Of a DNA stretch of 64,000 nucleotides, positions 7,000 through 9,819 are shown piece by piece. Numbering within the stretch: position 1 is the stretch's first letter; each line of letters starts with the position of its first letter. The translations under genes were made by a program, and so were the position numbers. Source of the stretch: an uncultured Myxococcales bacterium (GTDB taxonomy: Bacteria; Myxococcota; Kuafuiibacteriia; Kuafuiibacteriales; Kuafuiibacteriaceae); contig CAZFIV010000022.1 in NCBI GenBank assembly GCA_964519665.1, forward strand, positions 15,716 through 79,715, in the 5' to 3' direction. The notes beneath the pieces are model-generated. The model was not told where the DNA came from and did no database searches. It saw nothing but the letters and a program-made list of their open reading frames with translations.

Positions 7000-9819
7000 C
7001 TACGGGCCGGGCGCTTCAGTCTCCTTTTCAACCTTAACGCTCACTCCCCCCAACGCCGACCTTCGGCGCCAAGCCTCCAGCAGAGGGTCCAAACGGCCGC
7101 GCTGGACATCCTTGTACGACGCGACCGAGGCACCGGTGCGCGGGTCTCGCGCCCCCTGCCCGTGTTCGAGATACACCCGAACGACGTCCAGTGACGGCGG
7201 CGCCGGCTCCTGCCAGCGGGCGCCCAAATTGTGAACGACGTGCGCCAGCAAACCCCGTTCGGGTCCGAAGAGCTCCAATCGACGGCCCCGCGCCTTCAGG
7301 GCAAGCCGGGCTCGGTATGCGACCTCGACACCGAAGGCCAAACTCTGTTGGCGAACCGCCGCGATACCGGACGGCTCGCGCGCCGGTCGGCTGCCCTGGA
7401 CGAGGACCTCGACCGTCACCCGCTCATCGTGTCCTTCCTTGGCTTTACGACGATGCAGGCCGTCTTCCATGCGCAGGTAGGCCTCGGCAGCCGGACCTTC
7501 GACGTCGAGGACGACCATCGTCGGGACATCGTCACGAACCGCGTACGCGGCCACCCGGGCGGTGAGGCCGACCGTCCGACACCACGCCAACTCGATCTCG
7601 ACGAGGTCGGCGAGCAGCCCGCCGTCCGTGCCCAGCGCCGACGCCGCAGCCAACGCGACCCAGATCTCGGTCGCCCCTTCGTCGGCTTCCCGCTGGGACC
7701 AGGCCGCGAGCGCCTGGGCCGCGCGTTCCGCCAGCCGCGCCAGGGTGTCGACCGACGCTTCGCCGAGATCGTCCCGTTCGAGCAGGTCGAGCAGCGGCCC
7801 GCTGATTCGCTCGAAGCTTCGGATCCGAACGTCGAGCCCTCGGTACCGGTCGACGACCGCGACCTCCTCGGCCGAGCCCCAGAACTGGGCGACGTTCATC
7901 CGTTCGATGAGATTTCGGGCCTCCTCCCTCGCTTCGTCGAGGGTTGCGAGCCGCTCCCGTGCTTCTTGCCCCAATCGGTCGAGTTCCTCCAGCAACGCGG
8001 CCCGGTCGAGCTGACGGGTGACCGCCTCGGTGCCGACCGGTATGCGGACGGGGACCCGCGGCTCGCGGAGCCGGGTCTTTGCGACCTCGGCCACCACTCG
8101 GGGCCCGCGAACCGCAACCCGAACGTGGCTGCCCTTCTTCGGTTGGTTCTTGACGATCGCCTCGGCGACCGCCGTCGCCACGGTGCGCTGAATAGTCCGC
8201 CTCAAAAAGCGGGCCCCGTAGTGCGGATCATAGCCATGAACGGTGAGCCAATCGAGGACCGCTTCGTCCACATCGAGCCCCAAGCCCCGCTGACGAAAGC
8301 CGGACCGCTCCTTGAGGGTCTGTAGCTCGCGGATCGCGATGGTTCGGATCACTTCTCGATTCAATGGGCGAAAGTGCACCAGCTCGTCGAACCGGTTGAG
8401 GAACTCGAAACGAAAGGCTCGATGGATGCGACGTTCGACCTCCGCTTCGAGTTGGTCGGGGGGCGGCGCGCTGATGAAGCCGAGCGCGTGCTCGCGATAC
8501 ACCTCGGCGCCGGCGTTCGAGGTGGCGATGATGATCAAGGACCGACACGGGACCGGCTCGGCGAGGCCGTTGACGAACCATCCTTCGTCGAAGAGCTGAA
8601 GAAAGCGGTCGTGTACCGCTCGGCTGGCCTTTTCGAACTCGTCGAGCAGCAGGACGGCGAAAGGATGGCCCGCCAACCGTTGGCTCAACAGCCCCCGCTT
8701 GGCCGCCACGCCGAACGCCGAAGGATCACCGAATAGGCGGGGAGCGTCGTTTTCGTCGGGGTAGTCGGACATGTTCAGTCGAACCATACGGTCGCGACTC
8801 GAAAACAAGAACTCGGCCAGCACCTGAGCCAGGTGGGTTTTGCCGACTCCGGTCGGCCCAGCGAACAGGAAGACCCCGAAGGGTCGACGGATGTCCGACA
8901 AGCCAGCTTTCACCATGCTGATCATGCGGACGACCGCGTCGACCGCTTCGTCTTGCCCCAGGACGCGATCCGAAAAGAAGCTGCGAACCTCCTTGAGGTC
9001 CAGGCTCTCTTCGGGATCGACGAGCACCCGAGGGATGCGCTGGTTTTCGCTGAACCGAGCGATGACGTGCCCCGCCTCGACCGTCGCGCCCGCCGGAAGA
9101 AGGGAGACCGTCTGCCGGATCAGGTCCAACGCGCTTCTCGGAAGCCGGTCCCGCGACAGGAAGCGGTGGGCCAAGTGCAGCCCCTGCTCGAGGCTCTCCG
9201 GCGAAATCGAAACCTGGTTGTGAGCCGCGTAGTCACCCGCCCACGCATCCAGGATCGTCACCGTTTGATCGAAGCTCGGCTCTTCTATTCGAACGATGAC
9301 GTAGTGCTCATTGAGTTCGGGCGTGTCCTCGAGCATCGCCTCGAGCTGATCCAACCGGCCCTCGGCCAGGATCGGACCCGGTAAGCGGTAACACATCGCT
9401 TCCACGACGGCTTCGAGATCGTGGGTGTAGGCCAAATGGAAGTCGCGGAAAAACGGAACTACGTCCGGCTGCTTTTCTAGAGCGTCCAACAGATGGTGGA
9501 ACGCCTCGCCGAGCTCCGACGACCGGCGCAGGGCCGTCACCCGCTGGCGAAACGAGAACTGCAACACTCGCCTCTGCGACAGCACGCTCCTCGTCCCGGC
9601 TCGACTCGACCTCAAGACCATCTCGTGCACGAGCGCGGTCTTTCCGACGCCTGACGGACCGGCCAGCATCGGGTGCTTCTTGCTGCGAACCAGCTCTTCG
9701 ACCTGTCGCAGAGTGTCGTCGACGCCGTAGGCATGGACGAGTTCGCCGCCTCGACCCGCGGCCGAAAGATCCCGCTCCGTCCATGCGTGCATAACCTCCG
9801 CCGCTTTGTTGTCGTCCAT
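7000..9819 (-). CDS. Atypical Hsp100/Clp-family AAA+ ATPase with two NBDs, no Clp N-domain, no M-domain, and a 385-aa C-terminal extension
   Basis: NBD2 is near-collinear with ClpB D2: [23 protein letters not shown]...AVLLLDEFEKA...IIIATSNAG...GYDPHYGARFLRR. NBD1 has Walker A LAGPSGVGKTAL and the ClpB-like sensor region YVIVRIEEPSFDQTVTIL. Its Walker B is degenerate (VVPFFRDFHL versus Clp[11 protein letters not shown]). Confidence 0.8.
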   Translation of the reverse strand: MDDNKAAEVMHAWTERDLSAAGRGGELVHAYGVDDTLRQVEELVRSKKHPMLAGPSGVGKTALVHEMVLRSSRAGTRSVLSQRRVLQFSFRQRVTALRRSSELGEAFHHLLDALEKQPDVVPFFRDFHLAYTHDLEAVVEAMCYRLPGPILAEGRLDQLEAMLEDTPELNEHYVIVRIEEPSFDQTVTILDAWAGDYAAHNQVSISPESLEQGLHLAHRFLSRDRLPRSALDLIRQTVSLLPAGATVEAGHVIARFSENQRIPRVLVDPEESLDLKEVRSFFSDRVLGQDEAVDAVVRMISMVKAGLSDIRRPFGVFLFAGPTGVGKTHLAQVLAEFLFSSRDRMVRLNMSDYPDENDAPRLFGDPSAFGVAAKRGLLSQRLAGHPFAVLLLDEFEKASRAVHDRFLQLFDEGWFVNGLAEPVPCRSLIIIATSNAGAEVYREHALGFISAPPPDQLEAEVERRIHRAFRFEFLNRFDELVHFRPLNREVIRTIAIRELQTLKERSGFRQRGLGLDVDEAVLDWLTVHGYDPHYGARFLRRTIQRTVATAVAEAIVKNQPKKGSHVRVAVRGPRVVAEVAKTRLREPRVPVRIPVGTEAVTRQLDRAALLEELDRLGQEARERLATLDEAREEARNLIERMNVAQFWGSAEEVAVVDRYRGLDVRIRSFERISGPLLDLLERDDLGEASVDTLARLAERAAQALAAWSQREADEGATEIWVALAAASALGTDGGLLADLVEIELAWCRTVGLTARVAAYAVRDDVPTMVVLDVEGPAAEAYLRMEDGLHRRKAKEGHDERVTVEVLVQGSRPAREPSGIAAVRQQSLAFGVEVAYRARLALKARGRRLELFGPERGLLAHVVHNLGARWQEPAPPSLDVVRVYLEHGQGARDPRTGASVASYKDVQRGRLDPLLEAWRRRSALGGVSVKVEKETEAPGP

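What the first reader, a model, noticed from the sequence alone, without database searches (positions are those of the whole stretch)
7000..8153. 385-aa C-terminal extension on the Clp-like ATPase with faint, unverified resemblance to a class-I release-factor / peptidyl-tRNA-hydrolase-type domain
After the ClpB-like D2 small domain (ends near ...AEAIVKNQPKK) the protein continues for about 385 residues with no obvious Clp counterpart. Three segments are arranged in the order seen in RF/ArfB-type domains. EAYLRMEDGLHRRKAKEG loosely recalls EA..W..ML.RMY.RWAE..G of RF2. ERGLLAHVVHNLGAR recalls E.GVHRLVR. LDVVRVYLEHGQGARDPRTGASVA recalls [24 protein letters not shown], with HGQ in place of GGQ. 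The similarity is weak and could be chance. If real, it would place a degenerate ribosome- or peptidyl-tRNA-interacting module on an unfoldase. That would point to ribosome-associated quality control rather than generic disaggregation.
Basis: inference. Interest (0 to 1): 0.55.

Follow-up and report, generated by a model that had tools for sequence, protein, structure and literature searches.

The report
Dead release-factor module on Clp ATPase
The tail of this Clp-type ATPase really is a complete but catalytically dead copy of bacterial release factor RF2, conserved in about 150 protein clusters from uncultured bacteria, and it may tether an ATP-driven machine to the ribosome.

Summary
The gene at 7000-9819 (- strand, 939 aa) is a two-ring Clp/Hsp100-type ATPase without N- or M-domain. 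About 360 residues follow the Clp core.

- A profile of 38 relatives' tails hits RF2 at E=5e-23 in the PDB.
- hhalign against E. coli RF2 gives 97% probability over 281 collinear columns.
- An AlphaFold model (pLDDT 90.5) returns only class-I release factors as its top 50 PDB matches, the best being free compact RF2 (1gqe).

'HGQ' lies in domain 4 and is not a GGQ remnant.

All four RF domains are present, but every functional element is gone family-wide:
- GGQ is replaced by [LF]-G-[LIM], with no Gln in 38 sequences.
- SPF and the GGxE helix tip are lost.
- The switch loop and half of helix alpha7 are deleted.

The module therefore cannot read stop codons or release peptides.

My best reading is that it docks, codon-independently, at the ribosomal A site and L11 stalk and brings the ATPase there. 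This is inference, with probability about 0.4. Gene context gives no support. The fusion is not described in the literature I searched.

The parts
7000..9819 (-). Whole gene: 939-aa Clp/Hsp100-type ATPase with a C-terminal RF2-like module
   Evidence: ORF. Domains. There are 39 full-length relatives of 905-978 aa with the same architecture.
9094..9771 (-). AAA+ module D1 (residues 17-242). Walker A GPSGVGKT is present. Walker B is degenerate (FRDFH, 9436-9450, no catalytic Glu). There is no aromatic pore loop.
   Evidence: Alignment to ClpB/ClpA D1. Family columns.
8383..8886 (-). AAA+ module D2 (Pfam AAA_2, residues 312-479). Walker A/B, sensor 1 and the Arg finger are intact. The pore-loop aromatic is only partly conserved. 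It contains LGF at 8476-8484.
8080..8364 (-). D2-small domain, including its last beta-hairpin (residues 486-580)
   Evidence: Pfam ClpB_D2-small 486-568. The ClpB alignment reaches residue 578.
8008..8079 (-). Linker and extra beta-hairpin (residues 581-604)
   Evidence: AlphaFold secondary structure, strands at tail 35-41 and 44-50, pLDDT ~87.
7684..8007 (-). RF domain 1 equivalent: three long helices with the 'MN..FW' motif (residues 605-712)
   Evidence: Profile and hhalign alignment to RF2 residues ~6-116. Helices at tail 52-87, 98-127 and 136-158.
7393..7683 (-). RF domain 2 equivalent (residues 713-809). E-x-G-x-H-R is retained at 7450-7467. The GGxE helix tip is lost (SALGTDG, 7621-7641). 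SPF is replaced by AKEG (7432-7443).
   Evidence: Coordinates checked.
7210..7392 (-). Remnant of RF domain 3 (residues 810-870): three strands and a 14-residue helix. F-G-V (7327-7335) stands where GGQ is in RF2.
   Evidence: MAFFT and hhalign alignment to RF2 238-300. Secondary structure. No PF00472 hit.
7054..7209 (-). RF domain 4 equivalent (residues 871-922) with R-x-Y and DPRTG (7132-7146).
   Evidence: Profile stretch 329-370 aligned to RF2 321-363. Invariant columns. Coordinates.
7000..7053 (-). Unconserved, low-confidence C-terminal tail and stop codon
   Evidence: pLDDT 48-57. No consensus in the family.

Best explanation
What it is (shown): the C-terminal ~335 residues are a complete four-domain paralogue of bacterial class-I release factor, closest to RF2. 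It is covalently fused behind the D2-small domain of a ClpA/B/C-like double-ring AAA+ ATPase that has no N-domain and no M-domain.

The module keeps the RF fold and the RF-universal core residues: E-x-G-x-H-R in domain 2, and R-x-Y and D-x-R-T-G in domain 4. It has lost every element that makes an RF a release factor:
- the GGQ glutamine;
- the SPF tripeptide 'anticodon';
- the GGxE tip of helix alpha5;
- the switch loop with Trp319;
- about 25 residues of helix alpha7, the helix that lets domain 3 reach the peptidyl-transferase centre.

It is therefore fixed in the compact RF shape, and it cannot read stop codons or hydrolyse peptidyl-tRNA.

How it most likely works (inferred):
- The dead RF module acts as a codon-independent docking device for the ribosomal factor-binding site. 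Domains 2/4 would sit at the 30S A site and domain 1 on the L11 stalk, as compact RF2 does in pre-accommodation and ArfA complexes.
- This would hold a hexameric ATPase at the A-site entrance of ribosomes whose A site is empty or accessible (stalled, non-stop or idle ribosomes).
- ATP hydrolysis in D2 would then remodel or remove something there. D1 binds but probably does not hydrolyse ATP.
- The arrangement is a functional analogue of Dom34/Pelota-ABCE1 or Vms1-Cdc48.

Confidence in the identity of the module is about 0.95. Confidence in the ribosome-docking mechanism is about 0.4. The figure given below is for the mechanism.
For: Homology:
- The profile of 38 tails against the PDB gives RF2 E=4.9e-23 in two collinear stretches (domains 1+2, and domain 4). 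The 40 best hits are all RF1/RF2/mtRF1.
- 37 of 38 tails hit Pfam PCRF, best E=4.5e-13. Three full-length relatives exceed the PCRF gathering score.
- hhalign against E. coli RF2 gives 97.2% probability and 281 columns, spanning A2 73-369 and RF2 26-361.

Fold:
- The AlphaFold model has pLDDT 90.5 and pTM 0.82.
- The Foldseek top 50 are all class-I RFs.
- The best fits are the free or compact forms: 1gqe (TM 0.51, rmsd 7.6) and pre-accommodated RF1 6orl (rmsd 6.8).
- Extended ribosome-bound forms give rmsd 16-19.

Motif loss and retention: column counts, alignment.

Real family: 157 cluster representatives, and 39 full-length proteins with the same fusion. They come from Myxococcota, Planctomycetota, Acidobacteriota, Binatia and Hydrogenedentota MAGs.

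ATPase competence of D2.

Precedent that a compact RF2 binds the 70S A site (Demo et al. 2017, PMC5378476):
- domain 1 sits on the L11 stalk;
- the SPF motif is unengaged;
- GGQ lies 70 A from the PTC.

Inference: retaining domain 1, whose only known roles in RFs are on the ribosome (L11 stalk, RF3), is hard to explain if the module never meets a ribosome.
Against: - There is no direct evidence of ribosome binding.
- All residues that give RFs their specific hold on the decoding centre are gone, so affinity for the A site is not assured. These are SPF, GGxE, the residues aligned with the conserved His/Thr after SPF, and Trp319 of the switch loop.
- No translation-related gene is a conserved neighbour. 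The 21 genome loci share no neighbour at all.
- The pore-loop aromatic residues that threading unfoldases need are absent in D1. In D2 they are present in only ~14 of 38 relatives, so 'unfoldase' is itself uncertain.
- In this window the gene follows DnaJ-Hsp70 genes. That fits general proteostasis as well as anything ribosomal, and this context is kept only in the nearest relative.
- A plant RF2 paralogue that lost SPF and GGQ (PrfB3) works off the ribosome as an mRNA-binding protein (PMC5897788).
Confidence: 0.4

Rival explanations
1. Exapted binding module off the ribosome. The dead RF2 fold has been reused as an RNA- or protein-binding adaptor domain that selects substrates for the ATPase, as plant PrfB3 was reused for mRNA 3'-end binding. 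It has no role at the A site.
For: - PrfB3 is a precedent: an RF2 paralogue without SPF and GGQ that binds the petB 3' UTR (PMC5897788).
- All decoding-centre contact motifs are lost.
- No translation genes lie nearby.
- The domain-3 remnant carries conserved Arg/Lys columns, for example 28 of 38 basic at the RF2 Y244 position and 34 of 38 at the G210 position.
Against: - The full four-domain layout is kept across phyla, including domain 1 and the RF-universal core residues.
- Net charge by domain is unremarkable.
- No RNA or protein target can be proposed from context.
Confidence: 0.25
2. In-cis regulatory or coupling domain. The long helices of RF domain 1, and the rest of the module, replace the missing N- and M-domains. 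They would control ring activity or couple it to the Hsp70 system encoded just upstream in this genome.
For: - The protein lacks both the Clp N-domain and the ClpB M-domain.
- In this window, DnaJ-TPR, Hsp70 and a 499-aa TPR protein precede the gene with gaps of 14, 90 and 26 nt.
- The same order occurs in the nearest relative.
Against: - Hsp70/DnaJ linkage is absent from all 21 more distant loci.
- The module sits at the C-terminus, not within D1 where the M-domain is.
- Nothing explains why an RF fold with conserved RF core residues would be needed for this role.
Confidence: 0.15
3. Conflict or defence decoy. The RF look-alike is bait that senses a toxin or phage factor aimed at release factors and so triggers the ATPase.
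For: - The distribution is patchy and spans several phyla, all in MAGs, with variable neighbourhoods.
- The D2 region gives generic hits to PADLOC AAA models.
Against: - The PADLOC hits cover only the AAA core, residues 274-443.
- Neighbours are ordinary housekeeping genes such as CysRS, DnaA, a thioesterase, an M48 peptidase, ClpB and RarA.
- No effector partner is linked to the gene.
Confidence: 0.05
4. Active, if degenerate, release factor or peptidyl-tRNA hydrolase, with HGQ standing in for GGQ.
Against: - HGQ lies in domain 4 and is not conserved.
- The true GGQ-equivalent position has no Gln in 38 of 38 sequences, and the loop is shortened.
- Helix alpha7 and the switch loop are truncated by ~25 residues.
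- There is no PF00472 hit.
Confidence: 0.02
5. Chance similarity: the tail is unrelated to release factors.
For: The single sequence alone scores weakly: PCRF 13.6 bits against a cutoff of 24, and phmmer against the PDB finds nothing relevant.
Against: Profile E=4.9e-23. hhalign probability 97.2%. Foldseek probability 1.00 for 50 RF chains.
Confidence: 0.01

Closest known systems
Bacterial class-I release factor RF2 (prfB; PDB 1gqe, 4v67, 5u9g)
   Same: - The same four-domain fold in the same order.
- The same core residues: E195, G197, H199, R200, R324, Y326 and D335-x-R-T-G (E. coli numbering).
- The model matches the compact free form best.
   Different: - No GGQ Gln, no SPF and no GGxE tip.
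- The switch loop and about half of helix alpha7 are deleted.
- It is fused to a 580-aa ATPase.
- It scores 18.6 bits against the TIGR00020 cutoff of 370.
PrfB3, the plant chloroplast RF2 paralogue
   Same: It is RF2-derived and has lost both SPF and GGQ, so it cannot terminate translation (PMC5897788).
   Different: PrfB3 is a stand-alone protein that protects the petB mRNA 3' end. It has no ATPase. Whether it also lost alpha7 and the switch loop was not checked here.
ClpA / ClpB / ClpC (class-1 Clp/Hsp100 AAA+ proteins)
   Same: - Two AAA+ modules plus the D2-small domain.
- D2 has intact Walker A/B, sensor 1, Arg finger and sensor 2.
- D1+D2 align with ClpA 183-735.
   Different: - No N-domain and no M-domain.
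- The D1 Walker B Glu is lost.
- Pore-loop aromatics are not conserved.
- All NCBIfam equivalog scores are far below cutoff (304 against 1232 for ClpB).
- It carries an RF-like C-terminal module.
Dom34/Pelota-ABCE1 and Vms1-Cdc48 (archaeal/eukaryotic rescue systems)
   Same: The logic is the same: a release-factor paralogue, catalytically inactive in Dom34, works with an ATPase on stalled ribosomes. Vms1 recruits the AAA+ protein Cdc48 (PMC6514570).
   Different: - There is no homology. The eRF1 fold is unrelated to the bacterial RF fold.
- In those systems the partners are separate proteins.
- The analogy is an inference, not a test.
ArfB / ICT1 / PrfH (other bacterial RF-derived rescue factors)
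   Same: They derive from class-I RF domains and act without a stop codon (my own knowledge of these families).
   Different: Those factors keep an active GGQ domain (Pfam RF-1) and lack domain 1. This module is the reverse: it keeps domains 1, 2 and 4 and has a dead domain 3, with no PF00472 hit.

Membership tests
Class-I peptide chain release factor (RF1/RF2) | Four-domain RF fold (domain 1 helical bundle, domain 2/4 superdomain, domain 3) | tested here: met
   Foldseek probability 1.00, with the top 50 hits all RFs. hhalign 97.2% over 281 columns.
Class-I peptide chain release factor (RF1/RF2) | Catalytic GGQ motif in domain 3 | tested here: not met
   The aligned positions are [LF]-G-[LIM], with 0 of 38 Gln, and the loop is 3 residues shorter. 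The window protein has F-G-V at 7327-7335.
Class-I peptide chain release factor (RF1/RF2) | Stop-codon reading elements: the SPF/PxT tripeptide and the GGxE tip of helix alpha5 | tested here: not met
   The SPF columns are variable (E/G/D, G/N/A, R/P/A). The GGTE columns are P/A, L, variable and P/T/S/D, preceded by a conserved Asp.
Class-I peptide chain release factor (RF1/RF2) | Long helix alpha7 and switch loop (aa 315-323, Trp319) that allow the compact-to-extended transition | tested here: not met
   All 38 sequences have gaps at RF2 316-322. The helix is 14 residues long in the model. The role of these elements is taken from PMC5378476.
Class-I peptide chain release factor (RF1/RF2) | NCBIfam prfB TIGR00020 score above cutoff | tested here: not met
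   18.6 bits against a cutoff of 370.
Pfam PCRF (PF03462) | Score above the gathering threshold of 24 bits | tested here: inconclusive
   The window protein scores 13.6 bits, below threshold. 37 of 38 relatives match at E<=1. Relatives P0101, P0048 and P0058 score 39.9, 43.7 and 32.5 bits.
Pfam RF-1 (PF00472; GGQ peptidyl-tRNA hydrolase domain, ArfB/ICT1 type) | A match to the RF-1 domain model | tested here: not met
   No hit in the window protein or in any of 38 + 6 relatives. Only a beta-beta-beta-alpha stub remains.
Clp/Hsp100 class-1 AAA+ ATPases | Two AAA+ modules with a D2-small domain | tested here: met
   Pfam AAA_lid_9, AAA_2 and ClpB_D2-small. ClpA 183-735 aligns to residues 25-570.
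Clp/Hsp100 class-1 AAA+ ATPases | Catalytic Walker B Glu in both rings | tested here: not met
   D2 has LLDEFEKA, conserved. D1 has f-R-D with no Glu across the family.
Clp/Hsp100 class-1 AAA+ ATPases | Conserved aromatic pore-1 loops (K-Y-R in D1, G-Y-V-G in D2) | tested here: not met
   D1 has no aromatic residue at this position. D2 has Y/F/W in ~14 of 38 and His in ~8 (counted by eye from the alignment block).
ClpB/Hsp104 disaggregases | Coiled-coil M-domain inserted in D1, and an N-domain | tested here: not met
   There is no Clp_N hit. D1 aligns to ClpB 159-393 and D2 to 550-841, with the M-domain region absent. TIGR03346 scores 304 bits against a cutoff of 1232.
ClpP-partnered unfoldases (ClpA/ClpC/ClpX) | Surface loop with the [ILV]-G-[FL] tripeptide after sensor 1 | tested here: inconclusive
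   A hydrophobic-G-F motif is conserved in over 80% of the family, 9 residues after TSNAG. The segment aligns best with T. thermophilus ClpB, with a 3-residue insertion, and is shorter than the ClpC loop.

The most novel reading that the evidence does not exclude
A previously unrecognised bacterial ribosome-surveillance machine. A hexameric Hsp100-type ATPase carries six dead RF2 modules, which plug codon-independently into the A site and L11 stalk of stalled, non-stop or idle ribosomes. ATP is then used to split the ribosome, or to pull out a nascent chain, a factor or a ribosomal protein. This would be a single-polypeptide bacterial counterpart of Pelota-ABCE1 or Vms1-Cdc48.
Probability: 0.3. 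Interest if true: 0.9.

Novelty: new variant of a known kind. Interest (0 to 1): 0.7.

Why it matters
Bacterial ribosome rescue is thought to rest on tmRNA, ArfA/ArfB/BrfA, RqcH, HflX and MutS2. No AAA+ machine is known to be targeted to the bacterial A site.

A conserved fusion of an Hsp100 ring with a release factor that has lost catalysis and codon reading, but kept its ribosome-shaped fold, is a concrete and testable candidate for such a machine.

Even if it works off the ribosome, it matters in two ways:
- It would be a second example, after plant PrfB3, of a release factor recruited to a new job, and the only bacterial one I know of.
- It defines a new branch of the Clp/Hsp100 family, with a hydrolysis-dead D1 and relaxed pore loops.

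Public sources currently label these proteins only as ClpA, ClpC or 'AAA family ATPase'.

Tried and rejected
- The tail as a single sequence against the PDB gave only an irrelevant P7 hit at E=0.59.
- The word-indexed homologue search found only 2 close relatives. The exhaustive search was needed.
- Single-sequence AlphaFold gave a useless model, pLDDT 48.8.
- The genome scan with the single tail found nothing. The 38-sequence alignment was too diverse for pattern design. A 7-sequence alignment worked.
- Conserved gene neighbourhood: none among the 21 loci. Pfam scans of 20 flanking ORFs showed no common theme.
- PADLOC gave only generic AAA-core hits.
- No prfA/prfB or clpP homologue lies in the window or the fetched loci.
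- Four literature searches found no paper on this fusion. The broad survey of RF evolution does not mention a Clp fusion.
- Net charge per domain was uninformative.
- Rejected: HGQ as a GGQ remnant; an active hydrolase; a ClpB-type, Hsp70-coupled disaggregase (there is no M-domain).
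Full report
**The gene and its Clp core**

The finding lies in one ORF, window 7000-9819 on the - strand, 939 aa.
- Pfam places AAA_lid_9 at 183-239, AAA_2 at 312-479 and ClpB_D2-small at 486-568.
- NCBIfam aligns residues 6-569 with ClpA 164-733. Every Clp equivalog score is far below its cutoff, for example ClpB at 304 bits against 1232.
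- PDB alignments show D1 matching ClpB 159-393 and D2 matching 550-841. There is no N-domain and no M-domain.
- ClpB homology continues to residue ~578.
- The true extension therefore starts near residue 581 (window 8079).

**Is the tail release-factor-like?**

On its own the tail scores weakly but in the right direction: NCBIfam prfB E=7.4e-4 (tail 68-236 against model 12-190) and Pfam PCRF E=0.061.

An exhaustive HMMER search of 1.84 billion cluster representatives found 157 relatives. Of these, 39 are full-length proteins of 905-978 aa with the tail in the same place.

I cut out 38 tails and obtained four results:
- Against all PDB sequences, the profile gives RF2 E=4.9e-23 and RF1 down to 9e-19. 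It matches in two collinear stretches: profile 56-244 with RF2 6-203 (domains 1 and 2), and 329-370 with RF2 321-363 (domain 4).
- 37 of 38 tails hit Pfam PCRF, and none hits RF-1 PF00472. Three full-length relatives pass the PCRF gathering score.
- hhalign of the family against E. coli RF2 gives 97.2% probability and E=4e-11. The 281 aligned columns form one alignment across all four domains. It has the right length, with SPF at 205 and GGQ at 250. The segments printed agree with it.
- An AlphaFold model built on this alignment has pLDDT 90.5 and pTM 0.82. Its 50 best Foldseek matches in the PDB are all class-I release factors.

The homology is real.

All three were mis-registered.
- 'EAYLRMEDGLHRR' aligns with RF2 'YGWLRTETGVHRLVR', the strand leading into SPF. 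It is not the MY.RWAE helix. The RWAE equivalent is 'EIELAWCRTVG'.
- 'ERGLLAHVVHNLGAR' is the shortened helix alpha7.
- 'VVRVYLEHGQGARDPRTG' aligns with domain 4, '[17 protein letters not shown]'.
- 'HGQ' is therefore 80 residues away from the GGQ-equivalent position. It is not conserved.

**What is kept and what is lost**

Column counts over the 38 sequences, in E. coli RF2 numbering.

Kept:
- E195, G197 and H199 are invariant, and R200 is present in 35 of 38.
- R324 is present in 38 of 38, Y326 in 36 of 38 and D335 in 38 of 38.
- P-R-T-G after D335 is invariant or nearly so.

Lost:
- G137-G138-T139-E140 become P/A, L, variable and P/T/S/D, preceded by a conserved Asp.
- S205-P206-F207 are variable.
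- G250-G251-Q252 become L/F, G (22 of 38) and L/I/M, with no Gln at all. The loop is three residues shorter.
- RF2 316-322, the switch loop including Trp319, is a gap in every sequence.
- About 25 residues between the last domain-3 strand and domain 4 are missing.

In the model, domain 3 is a three-stranded sheet with a 14-residue helix (strands 266-272, 278-287 and 292-298; helix 301-314).

Demo et al. (PMC5378476) describe helix alpha7 as bridging the subunits to deliver GGQ to a site 70 A away, with the switch loop at residues 315-323. With both truncated, the module cannot open. This agrees with the fold search:
- The model fits free RF2 (1gqe, rmsd 7.6) and pre-accommodated RF1 (6orl, rmsd 6.8) much better than extended ribosome-bound RFs (rmsd 16-19).
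- The module is thus a compact, non-catalytic, codon-blind RF.

**The ATPase part**
- D2 has Walker A, Walker B (LLDEFEKA), sensor 1, Arg finger and sensor 2 conserved.
- D1 keeps Walker A but has f-R-D in place of the Walker B D-E throughout the family.
- The D1 pore loop has no aromatic residue.
- The D2 position equivalent to the GYVG tyrosine is Y/F/W in only about 14 of 38 sequences.
- A hydrophobic-G-F motif is conserved nine residues after sensor 1 (LGF at 8476-8484). ClpA, ClpC and ClpX carry their ClpP-docking tripeptide in this region.
- However, that segment aligns best with T. thermophilus ClpB, with a 3-residue insertion. I therefore leave ClpP docking open.
- Calling the protein an 'unfoldase' is not safe.

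**Context**

In the window the gene is the last of four tightly spaced - strand genes:
- DnaJ+TPR (13304-14533);
- Hsp70 (11436-13289);
- a 499-aa TPR/low-complexity protein (9846-11345);
- the Clp-RF gene.

RarA follows on the + strand, then canonical ClpB and BamA.

The closest relative (69% identity, contig L022) has the same order. The 21 loci recovered from species-representative genomes share no neighbour with the window or with each other. They come from Haliangium, Polyangia and other Myxococcota, and from Planctomycetota, Acidobacteriota and Binatia. Their flanking genes are unrelated housekeeping genes. PADLOC gives only generic AAA hits. Context therefore neither supports nor contradicts a ribosomal role, and the Hsp70 linkage is lineage-specific.

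**Mechanism**

Shown: a dead RF2 module is covalently attached to an ATPase with an active D2.

Inferred: the module still does what the rest of an RF does, which is to occupy the factor-binding site. Three points favour this:
- Domain 1 is retained.
- The RF-universal core residues are retained.
- Compact RF2 has been seen in the 70S A site with domain 1 on the L11 stalk and SPF unengaged (PMC5378476; PDB titles).

Three points count against it:
- All specific decoding-centre contacts are lost.
- Context gives no support.
- PrfB3, an RF2 paralogue without SPF and GGQ, works as an mRNA-binding protein (PMC5897788).

I put ribosome docking at about 0.4, an off-ribosome adaptor role at 0.25, an in-cis regulatory or Hsp70-coupling role at 0.15, and a defence decoy at 0.05. 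Active hydrolase and chance similarity are effectively excluded.

**Novelty**

I found no paper on this fusion in four full-text searches. The broad survey of RF evolution by Burroughs and Aravind contains no mention of Clp. Source databases call these proteins ClpA, ClpC or AAA family ATPase.

Both parts belong to known families, so I rate it a new variant of a known kind. It is an undescribed domain architecture with a distinctive pattern of losses.

Noticed in passing
window 9846-14533 (- strand): DnaJ+TPR, Hsp70 and a 499-aa TPR/low-complexity protein lie head-to-tail directly upstream of the Clp-RF gene, with gaps of 14, 90 and 26 nt. The same order occurs in the closest relative's contig L022. 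It does not occur in 21 more distant loci.
   Followed up: partly
window 9436-9450 and 8476-8484; family alignment of 39 full-length proteins: Three features hold family-wide. D1 has lost the Walker B glutamate. Neither pore loop has a conserved aromatic residue. A hydrophobic-G-F tripeptide (LGF here) is conserved where ClpA/C/X carry their ClpP-docking loop.
   Followed up: partly
window 15817-18111 (- strand): A second unusual AAA protein of 764 aa. Pfam AAA covers 358-412 and AAA_2 covers 516-650. About 350 N-terminal residues have no Pfam match.
   Followed up: no
proteins P0147, P0151, P0101/P0145/P0136: The tail family has sub-branches.
- P0147 lacks the DPRTG motif.
- P0101, P0145 and P0136 keep a more RF2-like 'MYxxWAxxRG' helix.
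- P0151 (292 aa, starts with Met) may be a stand-alone dead-RF module without the ATPase.
   Followed up: partly
protein P0140: A 343-aa metagenomic protein joins a CxxCH-rich N-terminus to ~100 residues of the tail's domain 1 and then to unrelated sequence. It is probably a chimeric assembly.
   Followed up: no
L022:3250-6040: In the closest relative the Clp-RF gene is called as three pieces (461, 257 and 145 aa). The contig has ~2x coverage, so these are probably frameshift errors rather than a split gene.
   Followed up: no
window 28006-33492 (- strand): An 1828-aa ORF has Pfam matches (AA_permease, SLC12) only in the first ~670 residues. The remaining ~1150 residues are unassigned.
   Followed up: no
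window 2869-5508 and 5601-6929: A canonical full-length ClpB (879 aa) and a RarA/MgsA ATPase lie immediately downstream. The genome therefore has an ordinary disaggregase in addition to the RF-fused paralogue.
   Followed up: partly
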